Of a stretch of 64,000 nucleotides of DNA, positions 40,101-56,924 are shown piece after piece. The translations under genes and the position numbers were made by a program. Source of the DNA: Eubacteriales bacterium (lineage in GTDB: Bacteria; Bacillota; Clostridia; Christensenellales; Aristaeellaceae); NCBI GenBank assembly GCA_031555755.1, contig JAVBUD010000008.1, forward strand, positions 1,785-65,784, read 5' to 3'. Under the pieces are notes generated by a model. The model was not told the origin of the DNA and made no database searches. It was given only the letters and a program-made list of their open reading frames with translations. Position 1 is the first letter of the stretch; each line of letters starts with the position of its first letter.

Positions 40101-43100
40101 GCCAGCTTCGCCATCATGAACGGCGAGGACGACGCCGCCGCCAACTACCTGGTGGACGCCACGGGCACCGGCACGATCATCGTGAACCGCGCAATGTTCT
40201 CGATCAATGCGCCCTCCGGCCAGTTCACGTACGACGCGAGACCGCACGCCGTGACAGGCTACGAGCACGACGCAGGCGCACTGTACGGCGGCGCGATACT
40301 GGAGACGACGCTCTCCGGCGACAGCCGTACCGAGGTGGGCGTGAATGAGACCGCCATCGAAGGCTTTGCGATTCGGATCGGGAACGAAGATGTGACCGAT
40401 AACTACGACGTGACGGTCAGCGCACGCGGCCAGATCGAGATCAAGCGCGCCCCGCTGAACATCAAGGCCGCCTCGAACAGCTTTGTGTACAACGGAAACC
40501 CGCAGACGGTAGTGGGCTACGAAATTGCTGGCGGCACGCTGTTTGGCGGCGACCAGCTGACCGTGGAACTGGCGGACGCCACGCGCACCCATGTGGGCAG
40601 CAACGCCACCCGCATCGCCAACTTCGCGATCCAAAACGGCGGCGCGGACGCCTCCGGCAGCTATGATGTGACGTACACCGGCACGGGCACGGTCAGCGTG
40701 ACCGCCGCGCCGCTCACCATCAAGGCCGGGTCCGGTGAGTATGAGTACAACGCCACCGAGCGCAGCGCCTCAGGCTATGAGATCATCGGCGGCCAGCTGT
40801 TCGGCGGAGACCAGCTGAGCGTGGTGCTGGCGGACAACACCCGCACCGACGCGGGCGACAGCGAGACCCGTATCGCCGAATATGCCATCGCGAACGGCAC
40901 CGAGACCGTCACTGGCGATTACGCCGTGAATGCCGAGGCCAAGGGCCTGCTGCGCGTGAACAAGAAACAGCTGACGGTGACCCCGGGCACGCAGAGCTTC
41001 GTGTATAACGGCACCGAGCATGCGGTGAGCTACGCGGTCGAAGGGCTGCTGCCGAACCACGCCGAGCAGGTCGTGCTGGAAGGCGCGAAGCGCAAGCTGG
41101 CGGGCAACAACGACGTGACGGTGGCCTCCACCAGGGTCATGGCCGGCAACGCGGACGTGACGGACAACTACGACATCACAAGCGGCACGGGCCGGATCAC
41201 GGTCACCCAGGCCAGCGTCACCTTCAAGGCGGGCAGCGGAAGCTTCCTGTTTAGCGGTGAGCCGCACACCATCACCAGCACAGACGTCATCGGCGCAATC
41301 GCGCCGGGCGACGCCGCGGACGTGGAGCTGCAGGACAACCGCCGCACCGAGGTGGGCGAGCAGGAGCTGAAGGTCAGCAAGGCCGTGATCAGGAGCGGCA
41401 ATGAGGACGTGACCGACAGCTACAAGATCACCAACCTCCCCGGCAAGATCACCGTCGCGATGATCGAGACGGACCTGATCATCACCGCCAACGACGTGGT
41501 GGCGGCCTATGACGGCCAAATGCACAGCGGCACGGCGTACTCGGTGGCCGGGCTGAAGGACGGCGACACCGTCCGCTCGGTGACCATCACCGGCCAGGGC
41601 ACGGACGCGGGCAGCTATGAGCTGGTGCCGTCCGCCGTGGAGATCGTGGACGCCAACAACAAGCCGGTGCTGGCCTATGCCAACATCAGCTATGTGAGCG
41701 GCAAACTGACCATCACACAGCGCCCCGCGACCTTGACCATCGACAACCTCAAGGCAGTCTACGACATGGGCGACCACACCGCCAGCTTCAAGGCCATCGG
41801 CCTGCTGACGGGGCATGAGCCCAGCGCAGCGCTGGTCGGCGCGACGCGCAGGGAAGTCGGCCAGAACCCGGTCACCTTCGACGCGTCCAGCGCCCCGGCC
41901 ATCCTGGCGGGCACGGCGGACGTGACCAAGAACTACAGCCTGACGCTGATCCCGGGCTCCATCTCGGTGAGCGCCAGGGGCGGCGCGGTGAAAATCGCCG
42001 CCAAGAACGTCAGGGCCGCCTATGACGGCCAATGGCACGGCGCGAACGGCTTTGACGTGACTGGCCTCGCCAGCGGCGACCATGTAGACGGCGTGACGAT
42101 CTCGGGTGAGGGCGTGAACGCGGGCACCTACAACCTGATCCCGGCGGGCGCGCGGATTCTGGACGCCAACAACCGCAACGTCACCTCGGGCTACCAGCGG
42201 ATCGACTATGCCTCGGGCACGTTGACCATCGTCAAACGCATGCTGACGATCAGCGCCGAAACCAGATCCTTCCCGTTCGACGGCGAGCCGCACAAGGTGG
42301 GCTACACCGTTTCCGGTGACCTGCTCTCGGGCGACGCCGTGACCGGCGTGGTGTTGACCGGCAACGCGCGGACCCAGGCCGGCTCCAACGAGGTGCTGGT
42401 GGGCAAGGTCAGCGTCGAAAACGGCGGTACAAACGTCTCGGGCAACTATGACATCATCAAGCGCAACGGTCTGATCGAGGTCGCGCCCAGAAGCGACGCC
42501 AGCTACCGCGTGCAGTACTACTACGCGGGCGTGCTGGACAGCGCCGCCACGGTGGTGCGCACCAACCAGATGCTGGGCCAGGTGATCGCCAATTACCCCA
42601 ACAAGGCCAAGGCCGGATTCACCCTCAGCCGCGTGCAGTACGGCGCGGACATCGGCGCGACCGCGCTGACCATCGGCCAGCACGACGCGAACAATGTCAT
42701 CAACGTGTACTATGAGCGCACCGGCGGCACCCCGTATACCGTGGAATACCTCTATCAGAACATCAAGCTCGACGGCTATGACCTGGGCAATGTGGACACT
42801 GTGGGCGGCATGAAGCCGGGCGACGTGGTCACCCAGATCGGCCAGCGCGTCGAGGCCGCGACACTGAGCGGGTTCACGTTCGAGCGCAGCGAAGGGCTGC
42901 CGATGACGATCGTGGAGGACGCCTCGCAAAACGTGATCCGCGTGTACTACGACCGCGCAACGAACCTCGAATACCGCGTGGAGTACTACTACAACGGCGT
43001 GCGCGATGACGCCGCCACCGAGCGCTACAATGGCCTCACGTACGGCACAGTGATCCGTAAGTATCAGGACAAGAACCGGTCAGGACATCAGCTACAGAGC

Positions 43101-43305: not shown

Positions 43306-43346
43306 GCAGTATTCTGGAACCGATTGACGTGAGAGAAGGATGCAAC

Positions 43347-45260
43347 ATGAGAAAGCTGATCGCGATGGCGCTCTGTCTCGGGCTGCTCTTGGCGGGGCTC
43401 CCCGCGCGGGCGGAGCGCTCCATGGACGCGCTGAACATCGGAGTGCTCGCCCAGATGAGCGGCGATTTTTTCACCGACATGTGGGGCAACAACACCGTCG
43501 ATATGGACGTGCGGGCGCTGATCCACGGCCAATCAACCGTGTCGTTTGGCGGCCATGGCAATTTTGAGCTGGACATGAGCGTGCTGAAGGATGCCGCGCT
43601 GAGCGACGATGCGCAGGGAAACCGCACGTACCTGTTCACGCTGGACGACGGGCTGATGTACAGCGACGGCAGCGCGCTCACCGCGAAGGACTACGTGTTC
43701 TCGGCGCTGCTGCTGACCGATCCCAGGATGACCGATCTGGGCGCTGTGCCCGGCGCGATGGCGCATCTGGTGGGGTTCCAGGATTATGTGGAAGGCGTGC
43801 GCAATGAGGATGAGCAGGCGCACTTTGGCGGCGTGCGTCTGCTGTCGGATCGCCAGTTCAGCATCACCATTGCCGCCGATTTTCTGCCCTACTATTATGA
43901 GCTGACGCTGGTCAACATCCAGCCGTATCCCATGACGGTCATCGCGCCTGACTGCGATGTCCGGGACGATGGCGAGGGCGCGTACATCACCGGTCCGTTC
44001 AGCAAAAAACTGCTGCAGCGCACCGTGCTGGACCCCAAGAGCGGATACCGGTACCGGCCATCCCTCACCACGGGCGCGTATGTGCTGGACGCCTATGACA
44101 GCAAGGCGCACACAGCCACGCTGGCCATCAACCCCAATTATCCGGGCAACTACGAGGGCCAAAAGCCCAGCATCGAGACCCTCACCATCAAAACCATCGC
44201 AGAGGACGAGATGATCGATCAGCTGCTGACGGGCGAGCTGGACCTGGTGAATAAGGTCTCCAGCGGCGAGCGGATCAACCAGGGCATGGACGCATCGAGA
44301 AACGGCGAGCTGTCCAGGACCAACTATATGCGGGCCGGATTGAGCTTTCTGAGCTTCGCGTGTGAGCGTGAGCCTGCGCAGTCGCTAAATGTGCGCAAGG
44401 CCATCGCCATGTGCATCGACGAGGGGGCGCTAACGGAGCAATTCCTCAAGGGGTTCGGCTTGGTGAGCTACGGTTTCTACGGCTATGGCCAATGGATGGC
44501 CGCCGCCATGGGCGACGATGTGTTGCAATTAGCGCGGTACACCATCAACCCCAATGCCGCCATCGGGCTGCTGGAACAGGATGGCTGGACGCTCGGGGAG
44601 GACGGCGCGGCGTACGACGATGAGCTGGGTGGCGTGCGGTGGAGGAAGGCGGAGGACGGCAAGCTGGAAAAGCTGGGCATCAGCCTGGCGATTCCGGACA
44701 ACTCCGAGGCGGGCAGGCTGCTGGCGGCGCTGATCACGCCCCACATGGAGCGGGTGGGCTTTGCGCTGAGCGTGACGGAGCTGCCCTATGCGGAGCTGCT
44801 CAAGCACTATTACCGCCAGGACGAGCGCAAGTACGACATGTTCTTCGCGGCCACCAACTTCAACCTGGTGTTCGATCCCTACTACACATTCAGCACTGAT
44901 CCCGCGTATCAGGGCGTGTTCAACACCACCGGCGTCCAGGATGAGCAGTTGATGCAGTTGGCGGACGACATGCGCAGAACCGCGTATGGTGACATGGACG
45001 GCTATCGCGAGAAGTGGCTGGCGTTCCAGCAGCGGTTCGTGGACGTGCTACCGATGGTGCCGCTGTATTCCAATGTATACTTCGATTTTTATCGCCCCGA
45101 CCTGATGGACTACCGGCCCAATGCCAACTGGGGCTTTGCCAACGCGCTGCTGTACGCGCATCTTGGCGAGCAGCAGACAGAGGCCCCAGACGATGTGGAA
45201 GTAGAGGCCGAGCTGGACCTGAGCGGCGCGGAGGATGGGGAGATCGTGATCCTCGACTGA
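43347..45260 (+). CDS. ABC-type substrate-binding protein, family 5, orphan (no cognate permease/ATPase genes adjacent)
   Basis: Start at MRKLIAMALCLGLLLAGLPARA. The ~640-aa length and motifs (YLFTLDDGLMYSDGSALTAKDYVFS, ...INPNYPGNYEG..., FFAATNFNLVFDPYYTF) fit SBP_bac_5. Confidence 0.8.
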   Translation: MRKLIAMALCLGLLLAGLPARAERSMDALNIGVLAQMSGDFFTDMWGNNTVDMDVRALIHGQSTVSFGGHGNFELDMSVLKDAALSDDAQGNRTYLFTLDDGLMYSDGSALTAKDYVFSALLLTDPRMTDLGAVPGAMAHLVGFQDYVEGVRNEDEQAHFGGVRLLSDRQFSITIAADFLPYYYELTLVNIQPYPMTVIAPDCDVRDDGEGAYITGPFSKKLLQRTVLDPKSGYRYRPSLTTGAYVLDAYDSKAHTATLAINPNYPGNYEGQKPSIETLTIKTIAEDEMIDQLLTGELDLVNKVSSGERINQGMDASRNGELSRTNYMRAGLSFLSFACEREPAQSLNVRKAIAMCIDEGALTEQFLKGFGLVSYGFYGYGQWMAAAMGDDVLQLARYTINPNAAIGLLEQDGWTLGEDGAAYDDELGGVRWRKAEDGKLEKLGISLAIPDNSEAGRLLAALITPHMERVGFALSVTELPYAELLKHYYRQDERKYDMFFAATNFNLVFDPYYTFSTDPAYQGVFNTTGVQDEQLMQLADDMRRTAYGDMDGYREKWLAFQQRFVDVLPMVPLYSNVYFDFYRPDLMDYRPNANWGFANALLYAHLGEQQTEAPDDVEVEAELDLSGAEDGEIVILD

Positions 45261-45275
45261 ACGGAAATATAAGCG

Positions 45276-45310
45276 AAAGAGCCTGGAATCGCCAGGCTCT
45301 TTTCTTGTTG
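45276..45310. terminator. Bidirectional intrinsic terminator between convergent genes
   Basis: AAAGAGCCTGG (45276-45286) pairs with CCAGGCTCTTT (45292-45302), 5-nt loop, T-rich tail TCTTGTTG, A-rich 5' flank. Confidence 0.7.
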
Positions 45311-45328
45311 TACCGGGTCTCCGCCCGT

Positions 45329-45796
45329 TCAACCGATGCAGCTGTCTTCCGCCGCCAGCAGCGCCAGCGCGGCTGGCAGGTCCTGCTCGGACATCGCTTT
45401 GACCTGCATGGCGTGGCGGCACAGCTGCCGCGCCTCGCCGCCGTGTGTCACGCACACCGGGCCCTTGCAGCCGCCGGGATGAAAACCGCAGGGCTTGGCG
45501 AGCAGATCGCATCGCACCTGCTCAGACAGGTCATCCAGCAGTTCCGCGTACGCCTGCAGATGGTACAGTTTCAGCAGCGCGCTCCACTTCATGCCTTCGA
45601 TGCGCAGCACCAGCAGCGAGCGGGCGGGCTTGCCCTTGCGATACTCGATCTTGTACTTGTCATGCTTGCCGCCCGCCGCCGAGGCGGCACAGGTGCACCC
45701 GAGTGCCAGCATGCGCTCGTGCAGTGTGCCCACGACCGCCATCTGTGCCGGCGTCAGTGACGTCGTTGCCATTTCATAAGTCACCTTGTCCGCCAT
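45329..45796 (-). CDS. Hypothetical Cys-rich protein (155 aa) co-oriented 22 nt downstream of the GRE activase
   Basis: ATG at 45796 follows GGAGGCGAG. Eight Cys including KPCGFHPGGCKGPVCVTHGGEARQLC (Cx6Cx4Cx10C). No family recognised. Confidence 0.5.
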   Translation of the reverse strand: MADKVTYEMATTSLTPAQMAVVGTLHERMLALGCTCAASAAGGKHDKYKIEYRKGKPARSLLVLRIEGMKWSALLKLYHLQAYAELLDDLSEQVRCDLLAKPCGFHPGGCKGPVCVTHGGEARQLCRHAMQVKAMSEQDLPAALALLAAEDSCIG

Positions 45797-45818
45797 ACGC
45801 TCGCCTCCAAAACTCATT

Positions 45819-46580
45819 CTAGAAAAATGCCCGAACGCCGCAGCTCGAAATCGCATCGCGATAATCCATCAAGTACTGTTCCCTCAGCGGCTTGGCGTCC
45901 CGATATGCGTAGGCCAATCCGAGCTGTTCATACTTTTTTTCGCCAAACTGATGGAAGGGGAGCAATTGCGCCCGCTTGAGTCCCAGCTCGCTGAGCGCCT
46001 GGGCAAAGCGCTTCGTGTCCTCCGGGGCATCGTTGTAGCCGGGGATGACCGGGATTCGGGGTAGGATCTGGTCGCCTCGACGCGCGGCGCGGCGCATGTT
46101 CTCGAGGATGAGCGCGTTGCTGACGCCGGTGCCTGCGACATGGCGCGCGTCGTCCCAGTGCTTGAAGTCGATCAACAGCAGGTCGGCCTTCGATGCGACG
46201 CGGTCGAAGACATCACGGCTCACGAAGCCGGTGGTCTCCAGCGCCGTGTGAATGCCCTCCGCCCGCAGCGCATCCAGCAGCGCCGCCGCGAAATCCGGCT
46301 GCATTAATGGCTCGCCGCCGGACAGTGTCACGCCGCCGCCGCTCTCCTCATAGAATGGGCGGTCTTGCAGGCACACGGACAGCACGTCTGAAACCGACCG
46401 CGGCTCGCCTGTGGGCGTGCATATATCCCCATCGCGCAGCACCTGCGGCTGCATGCGCTGGCTCTCCGGATTGCTGCACCACGCGCAACGGAGCGGGCAA
46501 CCCTTCAGAAACACGACCGTGCGGATGCCCGGCCCATCGTGCAGGCAGAACTTTTGGATGTTGAACACGATCCCTTTCAT
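45819..46580 (-). CDS. Glycyl-radical enzyme activating enzyme (radical SAM, short PflA-like form)
   Basis: Start at MKGIVFNIQKFCLHDGPGIRTVVFLKGCPLRCAWCSNPES (CX3CX2C), then GGVTLSGGEPL. 253 aa. The ORF-track start at 46772 is an extension. Confidence 0.9.
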   Translation of the reverse strand: MKGIVFNIQKFCLHDGPGIRTVVFLKGCPLRCAWCSNPESQRMQPQVLRDGDICTPTGEPRSVSDVLSVCLQDRPFYEESGGGVTLSGGEPLMQPDFAAALLDALRAEGIHTALETTGFVSRDVFDRVASKADLLLIDFKHWDDARHVAGTGVSNALILENMRRAARRGDQILPRIPVIPGYNDAPEDTKRFAQALSELGLKRAQLLPFHQFGEKKYEQLGLAYAYRDAKPLREQYLMDYRDAISSCGVRAFF

Positions 46581-46680
46581 GAGCGGCCTCCACACGATGC
46601 ATTGATGCCATTGTACCACGTCTTGTCCAGGAATGCAATTCCGAACGAAATAATAATGAGTTGCGTTCGTAAATTCTGGA

Positions 46681-46709
46681 TTGACATGTCGCTGTGCGTG
46701 TGATATAAA
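46681..46709 (+). promoter_or_regulatory. Candidate sigma-70 promoter of the ROK-GRE operon
   Basis: TTGACA (46681-46686), 17-nt spacer, TATAAA (46704-46709). The hairpin/palindrome GGAATGCAATTCC lies just upstream (~46630). Confidence 0.5.
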
Positions 46710-46759
46710 GGATACAGGGGCAGAGATGCGGATGGATTGGCAAAGAGAGGGTGCGGACG

Positions 46760-47713
46760 ATGGGCATGTCATACACTGTGGGCGTGGATGTGGGAGGCAC
46801 GAAAGTGGCCTATGGGCTGTTCGACGGGGAGAAAAAGCGGATCGCGAAGTCTGTGTATCCCACTGCGCAGGGGTTGCCTCCGGCCGAGTTCCTGTCGGAT
46901 GTGGCCAAGCGCGTGTGCACGCTGTGCGAAGAGCACGGCGTTGACCCGCAGTCCCTGAGCGGCGTGGGATTGGGCATGCCCTGTTTCATCCGCCAGACCG
47001 ACGGCCACATCATTAAGAGCAGCAACATCCCCACGCTGAGGGATTTCCCGGCGCGCGCTTTTCTGGAAAATGCGCTGGGTACGCGCATCGAACTCGGCAA
47101 CGATACCCACGCTGCTGGGCTCGCGGAGAGCCGTCATGGCGCCGGCCGCGGATATCAAGACATGCTGTACTGCTCGGTCAGTTCCGGCATCGCGTCCGCG
47201 CCGATTCTGGGCGGCAAACTGTTTCGGGGCAGCTACGGCTTCGCGGGCGAGAGCGGGCACATGGTCGTGACGCCGGGCGAAGGCGTTACCTGCGCCTGCG
47301 GCAAACAGGGCTGCTTCATGAGCTGGTGCAGCGGCCACATGATCGTCAAGCATGTGCAGCGCTGGATTGCGGAGGGCGGTCAGACGGCCATGCTGGCCAT
47401 GGCGAACGGCGACCCGATGCGCATAACCACACATGAGCTCAGTCGCGCTTGGCAGCAGAGCGACAAGATGGCTGTCCGCGCGGTCGAACAAATGCAGCAG
47501 TTTCTGTCGCTGTGGCTGTTTGACCTGTATCTGTTCACGAACATCAACTGCTTCGTGCTCGGCGGCGGCCTGCTCAAGATGGGCGACGCATTCTGGGACG
47601 AGGTGTTCCGGCGCTTTCATCAGCTCGACGACGGCGGCATGCCGGTCTACTTCAAGCGCGCCGAGATGGGCGACGAAACGGGCATCATCGGCGCGAACGA
47701 ACTGCTGTATTAA
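46760..47713 (+). CDS. ROK-family sugar kinase (no N-terminal HTH)
   Basis: MGMSYTVGVDVGGTKVAYG (ATP-binding DxGGT), GNDTHAAGLAE, zinc motif GHM...CACGKQGCFMSWCSG. Confidence 0.85.
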   Translation: MGMSYTVGVDVGGTKVAYGLFDGEKKRIAKSVYPTAQGLPPAEFLSDVAKRVCTLCEEHGVDPQSLSGVGLGMPCFIRQTDGHIIKSSNIPTLRDFPARAFLENALGTRIELGNDTHAAGLAESRHGAGRGYQDMLYCSVSSGIASAPILGGKLFRGSYGFAGESGHMVVTPGEGVTCACGKQGCFMSWCSGHMIVKHVQRWIAEGGQTAMLAMANGDPMRITTHELSRAWQQSDKMAVRAVEQMQQFLSLWLFDLYLFTNINCFVLGGGLLKMGDAFWDEVFRRFHQLDDGGMPVYFKRAEMGDETGIIGANELLY

Positions 47714-47726
47714 GGAGCTGACAACA

Positions 47727-50129
47727 GTGAAACATTTTGGATCATTGACGCCGCGCATGCAGGCGTTCCGAGAGGCGCTGATCGACGCGCAGCCGCAGGT
47801 GTGCGTGGAGCGCGCGATCATCACCACCCGCGTATACAGGGAGCACCAGGACCAGCCGCTGGCCATCAAGCGCGCGCTGATGCTGAAAGAGATCCTGGAA
47901 GGCATGACCCTCTTCATCGAACCCGAGACACTGATTGCCGGGAATCAGGCCTCCACGAACCGCAGCGCGCCCATTTTTCCCGAGTACGCCATGAGTTGGG
48001 TTATCGACGAGCTGGATCAATTCGAGCACCGCGACGGAGACGTGTTCCACATCACCGAGCAGAACAAGCGGGCGCTGAGGGAGATCGCGCCGTTTTGGGC
48101 GCACAACACCGTGCTCGACCGGGGCCTGGCCGCATTCCCGCCCCACAGCAAGCTGTTCTACGACCTGGGCATCATCAAGTCCGAGGGCAACATCACCTCC
48201 GGCGACGCCCACTGCGCCGTGGATTACGCGCGCTTGCTGAAGGTGGGCTTGAAGGACTACGCCCGCCGCGCCCAAGAAAAGCTGGACGCGCTGGACCTGA
48301 CCGATTATCGAAACATCCAAAAGAGCTACTTCTACCGCGCGATCCTGATCGTGTGTGACGCCGTTCGGGCGTTCGCATGGCGTTACGCCGACCTGGCCGA
48401 GGAGATGGCGCTGCGGGAAGTGAGTCCAGCCCGTACCGTCGAACTGCACGAGATGGCGCGCATCCTGCGCAAGGTGCCCTACGAACCGGCAGAAACCCTT
48501 CGCGAGGCGGTGCAGTCCATGTGGCTCACCCACCTGGTGCTGCAGATCGAATCCAATGGCCACAGCTTGAGCTACGGCCGCGTGGACCAGTTTCTGAATC
48601 CCTATTTGGAGCGCGACCTGGCCGAAGGCCGCGCCACCGAGGCCGAAGCGTGCGAGCTGATGACTAACCTCTGGCTTAAAACTTTCACCATCAACAAGAT
48701 CCGCTCCTGGTCCCACACCCAGTTCAGCGCGGGCAGCCCGCTGTACCAGAACGTGACCATCGGCGGCCAGACGCGGGACGGCAGGGACGCCGTGAACAGG
48801 ATGAGCTTCTTGATCCTGCGTTCCGTGGCGCAGTGCCACCTGACCCAGCCCAACCTCACCGTACGCTACCATGCCGGACTCAGCGATGAGTTCATGAAGG
48901 CGTGCATCGAGGTCGTCCGGTGCGGATTTGGCATGCCCGCGTTCAACAGCGACGAGGTGATCAGTCCCTCGTTCATCAGGCACGGCGTGGCTCGGGAGGA
49001 TGCCTTCGACTATTCGGCCATCGGCTGCGTCGAGACCGCCGTGCCGGGAAAATGGGGCTACCGCGTGACGGGCATGAGCTTTCTCAATTTTCCCAAGGCG
49101 CTGCTGATCGCCATGAACGACGGCGTCGACCCCAACAGCGGCACAAAGCTTTGCCGGGGCGTGGGCCACTTCAGGCACATGCGGACCTTTGACGAGCTGC
49201 TCAGGTGCTGGGATGTGGTCATCCGCGAGATGTGCAGGCAGTGCACGATCATCGATGCCACCTGCGACATGGTGCTGGAGCAGGACACCGCCGACATCCT
49301 GTGCAGCGCGCTGACCGACGACTGCATTGAGCGCGGCCTGAACATGAAGCAGGGCGGCGCGGTCTACGACTTCATCTCCGACCTGCAGGTGGGCATCGCG
49401 AATCTGGCCGACAGCCTCGCCGCGATAAAGAAAGTCGTGTTCGAACAGCGGGACGTGTCCCCGACCCAGCTCTGGGACGCGCTCATGAGTAACTTCGCGG
49501 GCGCGGAGGGCGAGCGGATTCGAAAGCTGCTGCTGGCCGCGCCAAAGTACGGCAACGACGACGACGATGTGGATCAGCTGATCGTGGACGCGTACAAGGT
49601 GTACATCGATGAGATGAAGAAATACCACAACACCCGCTTCGGGCGGGGCCCCATCGGCGGCATCTATTATGCAGGCACCAGCTCCATCTCCGCCAACGTG
49701 CCGCAGGGGGCGGGCACGCTGGCCACGCCGGACGGCCGCAGGGCGGGCGAGCCGCTGGCCGAGGGCTGCAGCCCCAGCCACGGCAGCGACCGCAACGGAC
49801 CCACGGCGGTGTTCAAGACCGTCGCCAAACTGCCGACCGAGGAGATCACGGGCGGCGTGCTGCTCAACCAGAAGCTGACGCCGATGATGCTTATGTCTGA
49901 GGAGAACAGACAAAAATTGATCGCGCTGCTGCGGACGTTCTTCAACCGGCTGAAGGGCTATCATGTGCAGATCAACGTGGTGAGCCGGGAGACGCTGCTG
50001 GACGCCCAGGCGCATCCGGAAAAACACAGGGACCTGATCGTGCGCGTGGCGGGCTACAGCGCGTTCTTTCATGTGCTCTCCAAGCGCACTCAGGACGACA
50101 TCATCGAGCGGACGGAGCAGGCGCTGTAG
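47727..50129 (+). CDS. Glycyl radical enzyme, PFL2/eliminase class, substrate unknown
   Basis: GTG lies 8 nt after AAGGAG and 13 nt after the ROK stop. Thiyl loop YSAIGCVETAVPGK. Glycyl loop HRDLIVRVAGYSAFFHVLSKRTQDDIIERTEQ. ~800 aa. The ORF-track start at 47433 is an extension inside the ROK gene. Confidence 0.92.
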   Translation: MKHFGSLTPRMQAFREALIDAQPQVCVERAIITTRVYREHQDQPLAIKRALMLKEILEGMTLFIEPETLIAGNQASTNRSAPIFPEYAMSWVIDELDQFEHRDGDVFHITEQNKRALREIAPFWAHNTVLDRGLAAFPPHSKLFYDLGIIKSEGNITSGDAHCAVDYARLLKVGLKDYARRAQEKLDALDLTDYRNIQKSYFYRAILIVCDAVRAFAWRYADLAEEMALREVSPARTVELHEMARILRKVPYEPAETLREAVQSMWLTHLVLQIESNGHSLSYGRVDQFLNPYLERDLAEGRATEAEACELMTNLWLKTFTINKIRSWSHTQFSAGSPLYQNVTIGGQTRDGRDAVNRMSFLILRSVAQCHLTQPNLTVRYHAGLSDEFMKACIEVVRCGFGMPAFNSDEVISPSFIRHGVAREDAFDYSAIGCVETAVPGKWGYRVTGMSFLNFPKALLIAMNDGVDPNSGTKLCRGVGHFRHMRTFDELLRCWDVVIREMCRQCTIIDATCDMVLEQDTADILCSALTDDCIERGLNMKQGGAVYDFISDLQVGIANLADSLAAIKKVVFEQRDVSPTQLWDALMSNFAGAEGERIRKLLLAAPKYGNDDDDVDQLIVDAYKVYIDEMKKYHNTRFGRGPIGGIYYAGTSSISANVPQGAGTLATPDGRRAGEPLAEGCSPSHGSDRNGPTAVFKTVAKLPTEEITGGVLLNQKLTPMMLMSEENRQKLIALLRTFFNRLKGYHVQINVVSRETLLDAQAHPEKHRDLIVRVAGYSAFFHVLSKRTQDDIIERTEQAL

Positions 50130-50143
50130 GGAACTGCGGTTCG

Positions 50144-50890
50144 CTACGCCTTGAACACCCCGATCCCCTTTTCTACGAGCAGCGTCTCCGCCTCTCGCGG
50201 AATCCGCTCGTCGGTGTAAACGCCTGTCACCGCTGAGAACGGGACCAGCGACACGACGCCCCGGCGACTGAACTTGCTGCTCTCGGTCAGAATGTACAGG
50301 CTGCTTGCCCGCCTGCGCATGGCCCTGACGGCCTCCACGCGCATCATGTCGTCATTGGTGAACCCATAATTGGCGGTGAATCCGTCGGTGCCGATGAACA
50401 GCTTGTCCACACAGAATGACTCGCAGCACAGGGCGGTCAGCGGGCCGACCATCACCTGGGACTCGCTTTGGTCTTCGCCGCCCAGCAAAATGAGCTTGAC
50501 GCTGCGCTGGCCGCGCACGGAATCGGCGATGAACGCGGAGTTCGTGATGATCGTCACGTCACGATCCTGAGCGGCCAGCGCCGCCGCGAGCAGCGCACAG
50601 CAGGAACCGCTCTCGATCATCACCGTCTCGCCCGGCTGCACAGACCGCGCCGCCAACTGCGCGATGCGGCGCTTTTCTTCGTAGTGATACGCCAGCCGGT
50701 TGTTCAGGTTGTCGCGTGAACCGATCGTGGCATGGCCATGTTCGCGCACGATCAGACCCATCTTTTCCAGCGCGTCCAGGTCCTTGCGCATCGTCACCGG
50801 CGACACCTTCATCCGCTCCGCCAGCGTCGCCACTTCGATGCGATGCTCGTCTGTCAATTGTTCCAAGATCCGCTTCTGCCGGTCCATCAT
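50144..50890 (-). CDS. DeoR/GlpR-family transcriptional repressor
   Basis: N-terminal HTH RQKRILEQLTDEHRIEVATLAERMKVSPVTMRKDLDALEKMGLIVR. C-terminal DeoR sugar-phosphate-binding-type domain (VMIESGSCCALLA...LFIGTDG). Confidence 0.9.
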   Translation of the reverse strand: MMDRQKRILEQLTDEHRIEVATLAERMKVSPVTMRKDLDALEKMGLIVREHGHATIGSRDNLNNRLAYHYEEKRRIAQLAARSVQPGETVMIESGSCCALLAAALAAQDRDVTIITNSAFIADSVRGQRSVKLILLGGEDQSESQVMVGPLTALCCESFCVDKLFIGTDGFTANYGFTNDDMMRVEAVRAMRRRASSLYILTESSKFSRRGVVSLVPFSAVTGVYTDERIPREAETLLVEKGIGVFKA

Positions 50891-51035
50891 CGCACAAGCC
50901 CTCCATCAGTTTCGTTATCTTGAGTATAGCCGATTTTTTGCGGGCTCACAAGCATCACATGAAATTGTTTTCCTACCGTTCGAAACCGATAGCACCGACT
51001 TCGCGGGCATGATGCATGTCGATTTCATGGCGCTG

Positions 51036-51065
51036 TTGCGCAATGCGTGGCGCGCGTGATATAGT
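51036..51065 (+). promoter_or_regulatory. Candidate promoter of the second YesN/YesM-type operon
   Basis: TTGCGC (51036-51041), 18-nt spacer, TGaTATAGT extended -10 (51057-51065). Confidence 0.45.
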
Positions 51066-51112
51066 ACACAGAGCGTTGGCGCGAAAGCGGATGGCAGGAA
51101 AGGTGATGCCGG

Positions 51113-52642
51113 GTGTACAGGTTGTTGATTGTCGACGATGAGGCGGGGCACCGCGCCGGGTTGATTGGGCTGCTGCGCTCGATCAAGCCGGAGTATCTCG
51201 TGTTCGAGGCGGAGAACGGCGCGGTGGCGCTCTCGATGATGGATGCGATGGACTTCGATTTGGTGCTGACGGACATTCGCATGCCCCGGGTGGACGGGTT
51301 GGATTTTTTGGAACGGGCGAAGGCTATGCACGCGCGGGTGCGCATCGCGATCCTGAGCGCGTACGACGTGTTTGACTACGCGAAGCGGAGCGTGGCGCTG
51401 GGCGCGGACGATTATCTGCTCAAGCCGGTCGATCCGGACGAGCTGAACCGCTGCCTCGACCGCATGGAAAACCGGCTGGTTCCCCAGCGGGCCAAGGAAG
51501 ACGGACACAATGTGGAGACGAAGCTGCATCTGTTCGTCACCGGCGCGCTGCAGGAGGCGGAGCGGCGCGAGATGCGCGCGTTGTTTCAGGAGGGGGACGC
51601 GGGCGCGGTTTGCTGCGCGCTGCCTGTGGACGGCTGGCGGGGAGACGAGGCGCGGGAAGCGCTGAAGCACGCGCTGCGGGGACGGTTGAAGCAGCTGGGC
51701 AGCGCGGTGGTATTCCGCTCACCGGTGGAGCGCGACGTGCTCACGGGCATCGTCTCGTTTTCCTTGGACCGTGCCCGAGACATGGCGGCGGCGCTGGACG
51801 AAGTGCTCGCGGAACTGTGGCAGCGCCACGGGCAGAAAGTCGTGGTCGGATACACCGTGGTGGCGGGCGGCCTGTTTGCGCATCTGGAAGACGCGCACAA
51901 CCGCGCGCGGGCGGTGTGCATGCGGCATTTTTTCGAGCCGGATCGGCATGTGTTTGAGGCGGACGGGTCGGTCTCGTTCGACCCCTACCAGACGATGCGG
52001 CTGGATGTGTCGATCAAGGCGATGGATCAGGGCCTGTGCGCCGGGGCCGTCGAGCAGACGCTTCAATTGTTGACCGCCGAGATCGAGCGGCTGTGCGTGC
52101 CGGGCGCGTACCCCAGCAAGATCAAGGAAGTGATCATGTACACATTCCTGTTCCTGCTGAGCAATCTGAGCTATCCGCTGCCGCGGGAAGCGAAGGACGA
52201 GATCCTGCTGTCCATCGACAAGAGCGTGCTGGAAAGCCGCAGCCTGGGCGACATGATGGCGGGCGTGCGCGCCGCACTGGCGCGCATCGCGTCGGCGATC
52301 GAACAGAGCCGGGGAAACCAGCACGATGAGGTGTTCCAAGAGGTGCTCAGGTATCTGGACGCGCGGTTCAGCGAGGACCTTTCCCTGGCGTTTGTGGCGG
52401 AGCGGTTTCATTATCACCCTTCATATTTCTCCACGCTGTTCAAGCAGAATGTGGGCAGCACATTCTCGGATTATCTGTTCGATCTGCGGATGCGGGAGGC
52501 CGCGCGGCTGTTGATCAAGACCCAGCTGTTCGCGTCGAAGGTGGGGGAGAAGGTGGGCTATCCCAGCGCCGCCTACTTCACCAAGGCGTTCAAGAAGCGG
52601 TTCGGCATGTCGCCGGACCAATATCGAAAGCGCGGGAGGTAG
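51113..52642 (+). CDS. Response regulator, CheY receiver + long linker + AraC-type HTH (YesN-like)
   Basis: GTG start. RLLIVDDEAGHR...DLVLTDIRMPRVDG...DYLLKP. C-terminal HYHPSYFSTLFKQNVGSTFSDYLFDLRMREAARLL...AAYFTKAFKKRFGMSPDQYRK. Confidence 0.9.
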   Translation: MYRLLIVDDEAGHRAGLIGLLRSIKPEYLVFEAENGAVALSMMDAMDFDLVLTDIRMPRVDGLDFLERAKAMHARVRIAILSAYDVFDYAKRSVALGADDYLLKPVDPDELNRCLDRMENRLVPQRAKEDGHNVETKLHLFVTGALQEAERREMRALFQEGDAGAVCCALPVDGWRGDEAREALKHALRGRLKQLGSAVVFRSPVERDVLTGIVSFSLDRARDMAAALDEVLAELWQRHGQKVVVGYTVVAGGLFAHLEDAHNRARAVCMRHFFEPDRHVFEADGSVSFDPYQTMRLDVSIKAMDQGLCAGAVEQTLQLLTAEIERLCVPGAYPSKIKEVIMYTFLFLLSNLSYPLPREAKDEILLSIDKSVLESRSLGDMMAGVRAALARIASAIEQSRGNQHDEVFQEVLRYLDARFSEDLSLAFVAERFHYHPSYFSTLFKQNVGSTFSDYLFDLRMREAARLLIKTQLFASKVGEKVGYPSAAYFTKAFKKRFGMSPDQYRKRGR

Positions 52643-52648
52643 CGGGCG

Positions 52649-54436
52649 ATGAGGAAAAAGTTGGCGGCCGCCTTCCGCAGCCTGAGCATCAAGCAGAAGC
52701 TGTTCGTGTGCATTATCCTGATCTCGCTGGCGCCGCAGTGTCTGCTGGTCGCCCGGTTTTTTGAGAACAGCAAGGGCACACTGACCGAGACGACGCAGGC
52801 GGACATCTATCAGCTGGTGCAGGTGAACAACGAGCTGATCAACCAGCAGCTGCTCTCGGTCCGGCAGGCCACACTGAACATCATGGTGGACGCGGAGCTG
52901 TACGAGATCTTCACCAACGCCAGTTTCGGCGGCGCCATCGACCGCGCCGCGGTGGAAAAGGAGATCCACAGCGTGCTCTCCAAGTACTTCGGCAGCCTGG
53001 ACAGCGTGGACCAGGTGGACATCGTGACGCGCGGCTACACCTATTCCATGCGGATTGACGCGCGGGTCTCCCAGTATCTGGGCTTCTTTGACAGCGAGCC
53101 CTACGGGCGCATCGCGGCCAAGAACGGCGGCGTCGAATGGCTTTCCAAGGACGACATGCAGCCGTTCCAGCTCAGCCGTTCGGGGGTGTCCTGCGCGCGG
53201 CTGCTGAACTTGACCTATGTGGGCCCGTCCGGCATCGGCGTGCCGCTGCCTGCTGATTATGAGCGGCCCGTGATCCGGGTACAGTTCAAAGACGCGTTCC
53301 TGGCGGACCGGCTGGAGAAGAACATCGCCAACCTGCAGGGCGCGGAGTTTTATCTGATGGACGACCGGGGCGAGCCGATGATCTGGGGCGGCGATTACCA
53401 GGGCTTTCAGATGGAGCCATCCTGGTGGGACGATGTGCGGCGCGAGGGCAGCGGCATGATCCGGGTGGAGACGAAACCGGGCGTTCAATCCGTGGTCTGC
53501 TTTGACCGGCTGGACCCGTCGGGCTGGACCAGCATCGTGGCGTTTTCTGTGGATGCCCTGGCGGGAGATCTGATCAGCGGGATGAACAGGACGTTCTGGG
53601 GCGTCGTGCTCGTGCAGGTGCTGACCTCGCTGGGCGCCACGCTGCTGGCGATCTCGATGATCACCAAGCGCATCAAGCGGCTGAACCAGGGCGTCGATTC
53701 GCTGAAAGAGGGGAACTTCAAGGCCATCATCGAGGACAACCACAGGGATGAGTTCACCTACCTGGTCGACAACTTCAACGGCATGAGCGTGACCCTGCGG
53801 CAGCTGATCGACGAGAACTATAAGGTGCGGCTGTCGGAGCAGGAGGCGCGGCTGCAGGCGCTGATGATGCAGTTCAATCCGCACTATCTGTACAACACGC
53901 TGAACGTGATCAACTGGGTCGCGCTCAGGGGCGACACGCGGCGGACCAGCGCGCTGATCGTGTCGCTGTCGCGCATGCTGCGCTACACCAGCGACAACCG
54001 GCAGGCGCTGACGCCGCTTCGGGACGATATCGAGTGGGTGAGGCAGTATCTGCTGCTGATGCAGGCGCGGTTTGAGGGGCTGTTCCGCGTGGCGTGGGCG
54101 GTGGACGAGGCTTTGCTGGACTGTGAACTGCCCAAGCTGTTCATGCAGCCGTTGCTGGAAAACAGCATTCTGCACGGGTTCTCGGACCGCAAGGCCGGCG
54201 GCGAGATCGAGATTCGCATCTTCGCGGAAGGACGAGACGTGATGTGCGAGGTGCGCGACAACGGCATCGGCATGTCGCAGGCGCGCATCGAGCAGGTGCT
54301 GCGCGAGGAGGGCGCGTCGATCGGGATCTACAATGTGAACAAGCGGATCCAATTGATGTACGGCGAGGGGTATGGCCTCAGCATCAAGAGCGCGGAGGGC
54401 GAGGGATCGGTGGTCACCGTGCGGATGCGCTTCTGA
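52649..54436 (+). CDS. Sensor histidine kinase, YesM-type (two TM segments, HAMP, PF06580-like H-box, HATPase)
   Basis: GGGAGG RBS. QFNPHYLYNTLNVINW, PLLENSILHGF, VRDNGIGMS. Confidence 0.9.
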   Translation: MRKKLAAAFRSLSIKQKLFVCIILISLAPQCLLVARFFENSKGTLTETTQADIYQLVQVNNELINQQLLSVRQATLNIMVDAELYEIFTNASFGGAIDRAAVEKEIHSVLSKYFGSLDSVDQVDIVTRGYTYSMRIDARVSQYLGFFDSEPYGRIAAKNGGVEWLSKDDMQPFQLSRSGVSCARLLNLTYVGPSGIGVPLPADYERPVIRVQFKDAFLADRLEKNIANLQGAEFYLMDDRGEPMIWGGDYQGFQMEPSWWDDVRREGSGMIRVETKPGVQSVVCFDRLDPSGWTSIVAFSVDALAGDLISGMNRTFWGVVLVQVLTSLGATLLAISMITKRIKRLNQGVDSLKEGNFKAIIEDNHRDEFTYLVDNFNGMSVTLRQLIDENYKVRLSEQEARLQALMMQFNPHYLYNTLNVINWVALRGDTRRTSALIVSLSRMLRYTSDNRQALTPLRDDIEWVRQYLLLMQARFEGLFRVAWAVDEALLDCELPKLFMQPLLENSILHGFSDRKAGGEIEIRIFAEGRDVMCEVRDNGIGMSQARIEQVLREEGASIGIYNVNKRIQLMYGEGYGLSIKSAEGEGSVVTVRMRF

Positions 54437-56922: not shown

Positions 56923-56924
56923 GA

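What the first reader, a model, noticed from the sequence alone, without database searches (positions are those of the whole stretch)
45329..50890. Uncharacterised glycyl-radical-enzyme locus: sugar kinase coupled to an eliminase-type GRE, with divergent activase and convergent DeoR repressor
Seen in sequence: 47727..50129 encodes an ~800-aa PFL2-type GRE. It has the glycyl loop RVAGYS and the thiyl loop IGCVET, with Glu two residues after Cys. That arrangement belongs to GRE dehydratases/lyases, not the Cys-Cys of pyruvate formate-lyase. Its GTG start lies 13 nt after the stop of a ROK protein that has no HTH and keeps the CxCGxxGC zinc motif, so it is a sugar kinase. Kinase and GRE therefore look co-transcribed from the TTGACA-17-TATAAA promoter at 46681. 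A DeoR/GlpR repressor, a family whose effectors are typically sugar phosphates, ends 14 nt from the GRE stop on the other strand. The context markers of characterised GREs are absent from the window: no microcompartment shell genes, no aldehyde/alcohol dehydrogenase pair, and no proline-reductase, sulfite-reductase or aromatic-acid genes. Inference: the substrate is a phosphorylated sugar or polyol made by the ROK kinase. The nearest analogy I know is the E. coli pflD/ybiW class, which also sits among sugar-phosphate genes (frw PTS, fsaA). I recall it being linked to anhydro-hexitol-6-phosphate dehydration, but this is unverified recollection. Here a kinase replaces the PTS and no aldolase is nearby, so any related pathway would be wired differently.
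Basis: partly seen in the sequence, partly recalled or inferred. Interest (0 to 1): 0.75.

Follow-up and report, generated by a model that had tools for sequence, protein, structure and literature searches.

The report
Kinase-fed YbiW-type anhydroglucitol radical enzyme operon
This is a gut-anaerobe version of the recently solved E. coli YbiW pathway that breaks down the food and blood sugar analogue 1,5-anhydroglucitol with a glycyl radical enzyme; it very likely uses a dedicated kinase instead of a PTS, so it is largely explained rather than unknown.

Summary
The enzyme family, however, is not uncharacterised.

- **Closest match.** The 800-aa GRE is 52% identical to E. coli YbiW (PDB 8ID7, 884 bits). 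YbiW is the 1,5-anhydroglucitol-6-phosphate (AG6P) C-O lyase/isomerase of the "anhydroglycolysis" pathway (Ma et al., JACS 2024).
- **Pocket.** The segments that line the active site are almost identical to YbiW and unlike PflD or glycerol dehydratase.
- **Synteny.** In 72 species-representative genomes (Clostridia, Bifidobacterium, Coriobacteriia, Treponema) the 60-82% identical orthologue usually sits with the same partners:
  - DeoR regulator: 56 loci
  - activase: 61 loci
  - FsaA-type aldolase: 36 loci
  - ROK kinase: 40 loci, of which 21 have the window's own type immediately upstream
- **Operator.** A 12-mer, TTACGAAYGAAA, recurs upstream of the operon in 38 of 73 loci. In the window it forms an inverted pair between the two divergent promoters.

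Best reading: ROK phosphorylates anhydroglucitol, the GRE ring-opens AG6P to 1-deoxyfructose-6-phosphate, and DeoR controls the operon. The aldolase is encoded outside this window.

Side finding: the activase lacks the ferredoxin-like auxiliary-cluster domain. That loss recurs at least 9 times in this clade.

The parts
45275..45303 (.). Bidirectional terminator-like hairpin that closes the minus-strand unit (activase plus small ORF).
   Evidence: 11-12 bp stem with 6 GC pairs and T-runs on both strands.
45329..45796 (-). Orphan 155-aa Cys-containing ORF, 22 nt after the activase stop. It is probably co-transcribed but is not a conserved part of the system.
   Evidence: No Pfam or NCBIfam hit. 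Only one homologue among 5.8 billion proteins (64% identity), and that one sits next to a flavin reductase. Absent from all 72 related loci.
45819..46580 (-). Glycyl-radical-enzyme activase (radical SAM, CPLRCAWC at residues 28-35). It is a short form that lacks the ferredoxin-like auxiliary-cluster insert.
   Evidence: TIGR02494 at 285 bits against a cutoff of 174, and PF04055. 53-57% identical to the activases of Enterocloster and Anaerotruncus loci. The linker is 45 aa with 2 Cys, against about 89 aa with 9-10 Cys in those relatives.
46610..46638 (-). Tentative activase promoter: TTGCAT, 17-nt spacer, TGgTACAAT.
   Evidence: Read by eye. The -35 hexamer matches only 3 of 6 positions and the scan did not call it. 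Inference only.
46639..46672 (.). Inverted repeat TTCCGAACGAAA / TTGCGTTCGTAA with 10 nt between the arms. It is the candidate DeoR operator and lies between the two divergent -35 boxes.
   Evidence: arms 83% complementary. Each arm is a variant of the 12-mer TTACGAAYGAAA, which occurs upstream of the (ROK-)GRE operon in 38 of 73 loci at 2.82 hits per kb, against 0.060 per kb elsewhere in the same loci.
46681..46709 (+). Promoter of the ROK-GRE operon: TTGACA, 17-nt spacer, TATAAA with a TGn extended -10.
   Evidence: Read directly.
46760..47713 (+). ROK-family sugar kinase (317 aa, no HTH). Proposed 1,5-anhydroglucitol 6-kinase.
   Evidence: PF00480 at 163 bits. Motifs DVGGTK, GNDTH, GESGH and CACGKQGC. 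The closest solved structures are ROK glucokinases 3VOV and 3VGK. Orthologues (47-68% identity in tblastn) lie immediately upstream of the GRE on the same strand in 21 of 72 genomes.
47727..50129 (+). YbiW-type glycyl radical enzyme (800 aa). Proposed 1,5-anhydroglucitol-6-phosphate C-O lyase/isomerase. Catalytic C434 and E436 lie within nt 49026-49034 and the radical glycine G776 within nt 50043-50060.
50144..50890 (-). DeoR/GlpR-family regulator (248 aa), convergent with the GRE.
   Evidence: PF08220 and PF00455. 55-58% identical to the DeoR genes of the Enterocloster and Anaerotruncus GRE loci. A DeoR orthologue lies within 3.5 kb of the GRE in 56 of 72 genomes.
50923..50951 (-). Promoter-like site upstream of the DeoR gene (TTGTGA, 17-nt spacer, TATACT).
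   Evidence: This is a consensus match only.

Best explanation
The locus is a kinase-dependent form of the 'anhydroglycolysis' (radical-mediated glycolysis) module first worked out for E. coli ybiW-ybiY-fsaA.

Proposed steps:
1. The ROK kinase uses ATP to phosphorylate imported 1,5-anhydro-D-glucitol at O6, giving AG6P. This step is inferred.
2. The radical-SAM activase installs a radical on Gly776 of the GRE. This follows from family knowledge.
3. The Cys434 thiyl radical abstracts H from C2 of AG6P. Glu436 deprotonates the C2-OH. The ring C1-O5 bond breaks, and H return gives 1-deoxy-fructose-6-phosphate. This is the mechanism published for YbiW, transferred here by homology.
4. An FsaA-type aldolase, encoded outside this window, splits the product into glyceraldehyde-3-phosphate and hydroxyacetone. 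Hydroxyacetone is then reduced to 1,2-propanediol.
5. The DeoR protein represses the divergent activase and ROK-GRE promoters through the inverted TTNCGAACGNAA pair between them. A sugar-phosphate intermediate probably releases it. This step is inferred.
For: Identity and pocket:
- The best solved-structure matches are YbiW (8ID7/8YJN, 884 bits, E 5e-265) and its unnamed orthologue 6XS4. Glycerol dehydratase scores 568 bits and PflD 483 bits.
- BLASTP gives 52% identity to YbiW and 37% to PflD.
- The numbering is validated: YbiW GCIE starts at residue 440, giving the C441 and E443 named in the review.
- At the positions that line the glycerol dehydratase pocket (H164, H281/S282, Y339, C433/E435, D447, Y640, mapped), the window and YbiW share the same motifs: SGDAH, NGHS, SPLYQN, GC(V/I)E, GKWGYRxTGMSF, AGTSSISANVP and GGVLLNQK. 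PflD differs at all of them.
- Of 201 positions invariant across the clade, 166 are identical in YbiW and 115 in PflD.

Context in 72 species-representative loci:
- Activase in 61 loci, DeoR in 56, FSA in 36, a ROK in 40.
- All 36 adjacent TAL_FSA proteins carry the aldolase signature D6/Q59/K85/Y131.
- The Enterocloster lavalensis locus adds a PTS EIICBA and an Fe-ADH.
- GREs linked to ROKa and GREs linked to ROKb have no position fixed differently.

Other support:
- Metagenomic ROK relatives at 38% identity or more have the GRE or activase next door wherever the flank is long enough.
- The operator motif is conserved.
- Glucose-phosphorylating enzymes are known to phosphorylate 1,5-anhydroglucitol (abstract of PMC6347702).
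Against: - No activity data exist for this clade.
- 52% identity alone does not fix substrate in GREs.
- The residues that actually contact AG6P in 8ID7 could not be read, because no coordinates were available and the primary paper is not held. Pocket identity therefore rests on positions mapped from glycerol dehydratase.
- 35 clade-invariant residues differ from YbiW, some near pocket segments: Y283F, P440G, Q660F, H685S.
- The window has no aldolase, hydroxyacetone reductase or obvious anhydroglucitol transporter.
- The ROK scores below the glucokinase subfamily cutoff (150 against 260 bits), and its sugar specificity is untested.
- The activase lacks the auxiliary-cluster domain that most GRE activases have.
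Confidence: 0.72

Rival explanations
1. The chemistry and pathway logic are the same but the substrate is different. The clade would ring-open a related anhydro- or deoxy-hexitol phosphate (for example 1,5-anhydromannitol-6-phosphate, or a broader set), and still yield an FSA-cleavable 1-deoxyketose phosphate.
For: - 52% identity leaves room for changed specificity.
- 35 clade-invariant positions differ from YbiW.
- Two unrelated ROK types (21% identical to each other) serve the same GRE clade, which could reflect different feeding sugars.
- E. coli itself has two such enzymes for two epimers.
Against: - The pocket segments match YbiW and not the anhydromannitol enzyme PflD.
- GREs linked to ROKa and to ROKb have no differently fixed positions.
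- The PflD equivalog model scores 557 bits against a cutoff of 1109.
Confidence: 0.15
2. The ROK is a general gluco- or fructokinase serving the neighbouring fructan (GH32/GH172) locus. Its position next to the GRE would be incidental.
For: - A GH32, a DUF2961 (GH172-type) protein, an ABC transporter and a two-component system lie 1-10 kb downstream.
- The closest solved ROK structures are glucokinases.
Against: - The gap is 13 nt, with the Shine-Dalgarno sequence overlapping the ROK stop codon.
- Orthologous ROKs lie immediately upstream of the GRE in 21 genomes from several phyla that have no fructan locus beside them.
- The DeoR gene and a separate two-component system lie between the operon and the fructan genes.
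Confidence: 0.05
3. The GRE is a true 1,2-eliminase or dehydratase acting on a polyol or sugar phosphate, rather than an isomerising C-O lyase.
For: - The Cys-x-Glu loop is shared with GRE eliminases.
- Glycerol dehydratase is the next-best characterised hit (568 bits).
Against: - The match to YbiW is much stronger (884 bits).
- All eliminase equivalog models fall far below their cutoffs: CutC 537 of 1050, HypD 534 of 1100, HpsG 539 of 1000.
- The conserved aldolase partner fits a ketose-phosphate product and not an aldehyde. There is no aldehyde dehydrogenase or microcompartment gene.
Confidence: 0.04
4. The locus is decaying in this genome. The aldolase is missing, the activase has lost its ferredoxin domain, and DeoR sits in the aldolase's usual place, so the GRE may no longer be activated or useful.
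For: - The window lacks FSA.
- The activase has a 45-aa linker with 2 Cys.
Against: - All four ORFs are intact, with every catalytic motif present.
- 18 of the 24 ROKa-type loci also lack an adjacent FSA.
- Short activases occur in 21 of 61 loci and in about 45 of the 120 best database homologues, with the radical-SAM core otherwise conserved.
Confidence: 0.04

Closest known systems
E. coli ybiW-ybiY-fsaA (AG6P C-O lyase YbiW, PDB 8ID7/8YJN; 'anhydroglycolysis', Ma et al., JACS 2024, as summarised in PMC13450708 and PMC12441222)
   Same: - The GRE is 52% identical over its full length, with the same Cys-x-Glu loop and near-identical pocket segments.
- It has an adjacent radical-SAM activase.
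- In most relatives an FsaA-type aldolase sits next door.
   Different: - E. coli phosphorylates the substrate through a PTS. Here a dedicated ROK kinase is translationally coupled to the GRE.
- A DeoR regulator and a conserved operator are present, whereas the E. coli locus has none adjacent.
- The aldolase is not in the window.
- The activase lacks the ferredoxin-like insert. YbiY keeps a long insert with 6 Cys.
E. coli frwCB-pflD-pflC-frwD / ptsA-fsaB-gldA (AM6P C-O lyase PflD, PDB 8ID0/8YJO)
   Same: It follows the same pathway logic: phosphorylated 1,5-anhydrohexitol, then GRE ring opening, then an FSA aldolase, then hydroxyacetone reduction.
   Different: - Identity is only 37-38%.
- The pocket segments differ throughout.
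- The PflD equivalog model is not met, at 557 bits against 1109.
- PflD is fed by a PTS.
Clostridium butyricum B12-independent glycerol dehydratase (PDB 1R8W/1R9D) and other GRE 1,2-eliminases
   Same: They share the PFL2 fold, the Cys-x-Glu loop, and conserved His162, His279/Ser280 and Tyr340 equivalents.
   Different: - The score is 568 bits against 884 for YbiW.
- The D447 and Y640 equivalents are replaced (GYRxTGMS and AGTSSIS).
- These enzymes carry out net dehydration of small diols rather than isomerisation of a sugar phosphate.
PFL-activating enzyme PflA (radical-SAM domain only)
   Same: The window activase likewise has only the radical-SAM core and no ferredoxin-like domain.
   Different: By sequence it belongs to the PFL2-type activase subfamily (TIGR02494 at 285 bits, above its cutoff; PflA model TIGR02493 at 189 bits, below its cutoff of 232). 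Its closest relatives carry the full domain. The domain was therefore lost secondarily.
ROK glucokinases (Thermus thermophilus 3VOV, Streptomyces griseus GlkA 3VGK)
   Same: It has the ROK fold motifs, the zinc site and the catalytic Asp, and no HTH.
   Different: It scores below the ROK glucokinase subfamily cutoff (150 against 260 bits), and its family is genomically tied to the GRE.

Membership tests
Glycyl radical enzymes, PFL2 subfamily | PFL-like domain plus C-terminal glycine-radical domain with an RVxG loop | tested here: met
   PF02901 at 683 bits, PF01228 at 118 bits, and TIGR01774 at 920 bits against a cutoff of 678. RVAGYS at residues 773-778.
Glycyl radical enzymes, PFL2 subfamily | Catalytic Cys on the Cys loop and a cognate radical-SAM activase nearby | tested here: met
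   GCVE with C434. The activase at 45819-46580 matches TIGR02494 at 285 bits.
YbiW-type AG6P C-O lyase (GRE isomerase class) | Closest characterised relative is YbiW, at a level well above other GRE classes | tested here: met
   884 bits and 52% identity to YbiW, against 568 bits for glycerol dehydratase and 483 bits for PflD. YbiW groups with the clade when PflD is the outgroup.
YbiW-type AG6P C-O lyase (GRE isomerase class) | Cys-x-Glu motif, with Glu hydrogen-bonding the substrate C2-OH (YbiW C441/E443) | tested here: met
   C434 and E436 align with YbiW C441 and E443.
YbiW-type AG6P C-O lyase (GRE isomerase class) | Same substrate-pocket residues as YbiW | tested here: inconclusive
   All pocket-lining segments mapped from glycerol dehydratase are the same as in YbiW and differ from PflD. 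The actual AG6P contacts of 8ID7 could not be read, and the AlphaFold model was too poor to use (pLDDT 56).
YbiW-type AG6P C-O lyase (GRE isomerase class) | Genomic linkage to an FsaA-type aldolase | tested here: not met
   There is no FSA homologue in the 64-kb window. The feature is met for the clade: 36 of 72 loci, all with the Q59/Y131 aldolase signature.
YbiW-type AG6P C-O lyase (GRE isomerase class) | Converts AG6P to 1-deoxyfructose-6-phosphate | not testable with these tools
   This needs anaerobic reconstitution.
PflD-type AM6P C-O lyase | Passes the PflD equivalog model and has the PflD pocket | tested here: not met
   NF007437 scores 557 bits against a cutoff of 1109. Identity is 37-38% and the pocket segments differ.
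GRE 1,2-eliminases (CutC, HypD, HpsG/HpfG, glycerol/propanediol dehydratase) | Passes the respective equivalog model | tested here: not met
   CutC 537 of 1050, HypD 534 of 1100, HpsG 539 of 1000, HpfG 501 of 1000.
ROK sugar kinases | ROK domain without an HTH, with the DxGxT ATP motif, catalytic Asp, and the ExGH plus CxCGxxGC zinc site | tested here: met
   PF00480 at 163 bits and a length of 317 aa. DVGGTK, GNDTH, GESGH and CACGKQGC are present, and all are invariant in 22 orthologues.
ROK glucokinase subfamily (TIGR00744) | Reaches the subfamily cutoff | tested here: not met
   150 bits against a cutoff of 260.
PFL2-type GRE activases | Radical-SAM CX3CX2C core of the PFLE_PFLC subfamily | tested here: met
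   CPLRCAWC, and TIGR02494 at 285 bits against a cutoff of 174.
PFL2-type GRE activases | Ferredoxin-like insert with eight Cys for auxiliary [4Fe-4S] clusters | tested here: not met
   The linker is 45 aa with 2 Cys, against about 89 aa with 9-10 Cys in sister activases. No Fer4 Pfam hit.
DeoR/GlpR regulators | N-terminal DeoR HTH plus C-terminal DeoRC sensor domain | tested here: met
   PF08220 at 46.5 bits and PF00455 at 148 bits.

The most novel reading that the evidence does not exclude
Two linked points go beyond what the held literature describes.

1. A large clade of YbiW orthologues, spread across several phyla, is fed by dedicated ROK kinases of two unrelated types rather than by a PTS. 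It is governed by a conserved DeoR regulator with a TTACGAAYGAAA operator.
2. Within this one clade the activase has lost or degraded its ferredoxin-like auxiliary-cluster domain at least nine times (21 short and 8 degenerate among 61 loci), and the GRE stays intact.

If these short activases are active, the auxiliary clusters are dispensable for activating a PFL2-type GRE. The full and short sister pairs would then be a ready-made natural experiment on a domain whose function is still unknown.
Probability: 0.5. Interest if true: 0.5.

Novelty: new variant of a known kind. Interest (0 to 1): 0.35.

Why it matters
- **Ecology and health.** 1,5-Anhydroglucitol is a dietary and blood metabolite, a clinical glycaemia marker, and the precursor of the toxic AG6P in GSD-Ib and G6PC3 neutropenia. 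Knowing which gut anaerobes can consume it, and by which entry step, matters for microbiome and host metabolite models.
- **Reach of the pathway.** This locus and its 72 relatives suggest that Clostridia, Bifidobacterium, Coriobacteriia and termite-gut Treponema carry the pathway in a kinase-dependent form. That extends the E. coli PTS paradigm.
- **Annotation.** These findings give a concrete rule for genes that public sources currently name only generically ('glycyl radical protein'; 'ROK family' by Pfam).
- **Activase biochemistry.** The repeated natural loss of the activase's ferredoxin domain offers a tractable way to study what the auxiliary clusters do.

Tried and rejected
- **Primary paper.** Ma et al. 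2024 could not be read by DOI or PubMed id. Its content is taken second-hand from PMC13450708 and PMC12441222. I therefore cannot say whether kinase-type clusters were already noted there.
- **AlphaFold2 model.** The GRE model, built from an 18-sequence alignment, was poor (mean pLDDT 56; the Cys and Gly loops below 50). No fold search was run, and pocket comparison stayed at the sequence level.
- **Metagenome scan with the single ROK sequence.** It found nothing. The repeat with a 22-sequence profile returned mostly generic soil ROKs at about 30% identity. Only six hits were at 38% or above, so the reciprocal synteny test is small.
- **Small ORF 45329-45796.** I considered it as a trans-acting Fe-S partner for the short activase and rejected it. 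It has one homologue, in another context, and is absent from every other short-activase locus.
- **CUT2 ABC transporter at 18260-21827.** I tested it as the anhydroglucitol importer. It shows only family-level similarity (substrate-binding protein 25-26%) to the CUT2 systems next to ROKa-GRE loci in Christensenella and Treponema.
- **Rfam.** No match in 45000-51300.
- **Source organism.** A Clostridia (Oscillospiraceae-like) origin is only inferred, from 62-63% GC and the best hits.
Full report
**1. Observation**

The region holds five ORFs.

- **GRE.** 47727-50129 (+) is an 800-aa glycyl radical enzyme. It matches PF02901 at 683 bits, PF01228 at 118 bits, and the PFL2-3 subfamily model TIGR01774 at 920 bits against a cutoff of 678. 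The glycyl loop RVAGYS lies at residues 773-778. The thiyl loop is GCVE, with C434 and E436.
- **ROK.** It starts at ATG 46760, giving 317 aa, the same start as the public gene call. It has a ROK domain only and no HTH. It keeps DVGGTK, the catalytic GNDTH, GESGH and CACGKQGC. Its TAA stop ends at 47713, AAGGAG overlaps that stop, and the GRE GTG follows after 13 nt.
- **Promoter.** TTGACA (46681), a 17-nt spacer, then TGaTATAAA can be read directly in the sequence. The scan tool skips it only because it requires T at position 6 of the -10 hexamer.
- **DeoR.** The gene at 50144-50890 (-) ends 14 nt from the GRE stop.
- **Activase.** It spans 45819-46580 (-) and is 253 aa.
- **Left edge.** The finding's left edge, 45329, belongs instead to a 155-aa orphan ORF that follows the activase. 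A bidirectional terminator at 45275-45303 comes after it.

Rfam finds no known RNA element in 45000-51300.

**2. What the GRE is**

Against all PDB sequences, the top hits are 6XS4 (897 bits) and E. coli YbiW (8ID7/8YJN, 884 bits, E 5e-265). Glycerol dehydratase scores 568 bits, propanediol dehydratase 537, CutC 526 and PflD 483. BLASTP against the E. coli K-12 genes gives 52% identity to YbiW and 37% to PflD.

A 2026 review describes YbiW and PflD as a new GRE isomerase class (PMC13450708, section 5.7). They cleave the ring C-O bond of 1,5-anhydroglucitol-6-phosphate (AG6P) and 1,5-anhydromannitol-6-phosphate respectively, and both give 1-deoxyfructose-6-phosphate. Aldolases then split that product into glyceraldehyde-3-phosphate and hydroxyacetone. 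In E. coli the substrates are phosphorylated by a PTS (PMC12441222). The primary paper (Ma et al., JACS 2024, 146:26187) is not held.

No NCBIfam equivalog cutoff is reached. The scores are PflD 557 of 1109, CutC 537 of 1050, HypD 534 of 1100 and HpsG 539 of 1000.

**3. Pocket comparison**

I mapped the classic glycerol dehydratase pocket positions onto the window protein using the HMMER alignment to 1R8W. The positions N156/H164, H281/S282, Y339, C433/E435, D447 and Y640 are taken from my knowledge of the 1R9D literature. The numbering was checked by counting in that alignment.

In a 72-sequence MAFFT alignment, the window and YbiW share the same motifs at all these segments:

- SGDAH
- NGHS
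- SAGSPLYQNVTIGGQ
- GC(V/I)ETAV
- GKWGYRxTGMSF
- YYAGTSSISANVP
- GGVLLNQK

PflD reads GQGH, NASS, AGFPTGYT, GR-TYGLHDIAMF, PGSYTVSAHVP and NGTLLNVK at the same places.

Of 201 positions invariant across the clade, 166 are identical in YbiW and 115 in PflD. The YbiW numbering is validated, because GCIE starts at residue 440 and gives the C441 and E443 named in the review.

Thirty-five clade-invariant residues do differ from YbiW, including Y283F, P440G, Q660F and H685S. I could not read the true AG6P contacts. An AlphaFold2 model built from a shallow alignment was unusable (pLDDT 56). Pocket identity is therefore strongly suggested but not proven.

**4. Is the ROK/DeoR context conserved?**

Close homologues at 79-83% identity are abundant. 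Two examples show the pattern.

- In Enterocloster lavalensis the order is PTS-EIICBA, DeoR, activase (-), GRE, TAL_FSA, ROK, Fe-ADH.
- In Anaerotruncus massiliensis the order is DeoR, activase (-), ROK, GRE, TAL_FSA.

A scan of species-representative genomes returned 72 loci at 60-82% identity. They come from Lachnospiraceae, Oscillospiraceae, Christensenella, Erysipelotrichaceae, Veillonellaceae, Bifidobacterium, Coriobacteriia and termite-gut Treponema.

tblastn mapping within 3.5 kb of the GRE gives these counts:

| Neighbour | Loci (of 72) |
|---|---|
| Activase | 61 |
| DeoR | 56 |
| FSA aldolase | 36 (35 of the 65 loci with at least 1.5 kb of sequence downstream of the GRE) |
| Any ROK | 40 |
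| PTS | 1 |

Two unrelated ROK types occur.

- **ROKa** is the window's type, with 47-68% identity to the reference ROKa proteins in tblastn. It occurs in 24 loci, and in 21 of them it lies immediately upstream of the GRE on the same strand.
- **ROKb** is only 21% identical to ROKa. It follows the aldolase in 16 loci.

Eighteen of the 24 ROKa loci lack an adjacent aldolase, as the window does. The window's layout is therefore the usual one for its type.

Several further points tie the partners together.

- All 36 adjacent TAL_FSA proteins carry D6/Q59/K85/Y131. From the FsaA/TalB literature, as I recall it, this signature distinguishes fructose-6-phosphate aldolases from transaldolases.
- GREs linked to ROKa and to ROKb have no differently fixed position, which argues for one specificity.
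- Metagenomic ROK relatives at 38% identity or more have the GRE or activase next door wherever the flank allows. ROKs at about 30% identity mostly do not. This sample is small.
- Some ROKa loci carry a ribose-type ABC transporter. The window's CUT2 system at 18-22 kb is not orthologous to it.

**5. Regulation**

K-mer counting in the intergenic DNA upstream of the (ROK-)GRE operon recovers a 12-mer, TTACGAAYGAAA. It occurs in 38 of 73 loci, at 2.82 hits per kb in the 400 nt upstream and 0.060 per kb elsewhere in the same loci.

In the window, two variants form an inverted repeat, TTCCGAACGAAA (46639-46650) and TTGCGTTCGTAA (46661-46672). The right arm ends 8 nt before the ROK -35 box. The left arm abuts a tentative activase promoter on the other strand (TTGCAT, 17-nt spacer, TGgTACAAT), which I read by eye.

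DeoR is the only regulator conserved with the system, so I assign this site to it. That assignment and the identity of the inducer (AG6P or 1-deoxyfructose-6-phosphate) are inference.

**6. Mechanism proposed**

1. 1,5-Anhydroglucitol is imported by an unidentified transporter.
2. The ROK kinase converts it to AG6P. This is plausible because glucose-phosphorylating enzymes are known to do so (abstract of PMC6347702).
3. The activated GRE (Gly776 radical, then Cys434 thiyl) abstracts H from C2. Glu436 deprotonates the C2-OH. The C1-O5 bond breaks, and H return gives 1-deoxyfructose-6-phosphate. This is the published YbiW mechanism.
4. An FSA aldolase and a hydroxyacetone reductase, both encoded outside the window, finish the pathway.

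The GRE family placement, synteny, motifs and operator conservation are shown. All enzymatic steps are inferred by homology.

**7. Rivals**

- A related but different anhydrohexitol phosphate remains possible (about 0.15).
- A general hexokinase role for the ROK, serving the nearby fructan locus, is unlikely given the conserved coupling. That locus comprises a two-component system, a CUT1 ABC transporter, DUF2961 and GH32 at 51113-60705.
- A true dehydratase role is unlikely given the gap between the YbiW and eliminase scores and the aldolase partner.
- Decay of the locus is unlikely because all motifs are intact and the same layout recurs.

**8. Side finding**

The activase is a PFL2-type enzyme by sequence. 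TIGR02494 scores 285 bits, above its cutoff. The PflA model TIGR02493 scores 189 bits, below its cutoff of 232. Yet it has a clean excision of about 45 aa that removes both CX2CX2CX3C motifs.

Across the clade, 32 activases are full length, 21 are short and 8 keep the insert length but have lost Cys residues. On the GRE neighbour-joining tree this needs at least 9 changes of state. About 45 of the 120 best database homologues are also short and have no Fer4 hits.

The review states that the vast majority of GRE activases carry this domain, that its function is unknown, and that it was reported as needed for a lasting radical in HPAD. These natural full and short pairs are therefore worth testing.

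**9. Verdict**

The enzyme family was solved in 2024, so the locus is a new variant of a known kind: kinase-fed, DeoR-controlled, with the aldolase unlinked and a short activase. It is not an unknown GRE chemistry. Interest is 0.35.

Noticed in passing
window 45819-46580 (-); also L014, L018, L020, L022, L023, L031-L033, L043, L047, L053, L057, L059-L061, L064, L067, L068, L074: The PFL2-type activase has lost the ferredoxin-like auxiliary-cluster insert (45-aa linker with 2 Cys, against about 89 aa with 9-10 Cys). In this GRE clade 21 of 61 activases are short and 8 are Cys-depleted, which needs at least 9 changes on the GRE tree. E. coli YbiY itself keeps only 6 Cys in its insert.
   Followed up: partly
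window 46639-46672, and upstream of the GRE operon in 37 related loci: A conserved 12-mer, TTACGAAYGAAA, is 47-fold enriched upstream of the operon across Clostridia, Bifidobacterium, Coriobacteriia and Erysipelotrichaceae. It is not found in the Treponema loci. It is the likely DeoR operator.
   Followed up: partly
window 45329-45796 (-): An orphan 155-aa ORF lies 22 nt after the activase stop. It has five Cys conserved with its single known homologue (64% identity), which sits next to a flavin reductase. It has no family assignment.
   Followed up: partly
window 51113-60705 (+): A separate carbohydrate locus: a YesN/YesM-type response regulator and histidine kinase, a CUT1 ABC binding protein and two permeases, a DUF2961 protein (GH172-type, by my recollection) and a GH32 fructosidase. 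It looks like a fructan or difructose-anhydride utilisation cluster.
   Followed up: no
window 17157-29418: A cluster with two xylose-isomerase-like TIM-barrel proteins, two Zn-dependent alcohol/polyol dehydrogenases, a CUT2 ABC system (minus strand) and a CUT1 ABC system with its binding protein. It may be another rare-sugar or polyol pathway. It is not orthologous to the GRE-linked transporters.
   Followed up: partly
window 31137-43265 (+): A single 4042-aa ORF with a signal-peptide-like N-terminus and long leucine-rich, repeat-like stretches. It is a giant surface protein, followed by a lone family-5 solute-binding protein at 43329-45260.
   Followed up: no
L091 (metagenome contig WOYI011148391.1), 4998-9324: A more distant GRE (45% identical to the window's) is also preceded by a ROK (32% identity) and followed by an activase. 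ROK-GRE pairing therefore extends beyond the 60-82% clade.
   Followed up: no
L026, L047, L053, L057, L060, L067: Several ROKa-GRE loci (Christensenella, Treponema, uncultured Clostridia) carry a ribose-type (CUT2) ABC transporter nearby. It is a candidate 1,5-anhydroglucitol importer for the kinase-dependent variant.
   Followed up: partly
window 3165-5080 (+): A radical-SAM/SPASM protein is followed directly by a TauE/SafE-family exporter, next to a histidine kinase (1224-3155).
   Followed up: no
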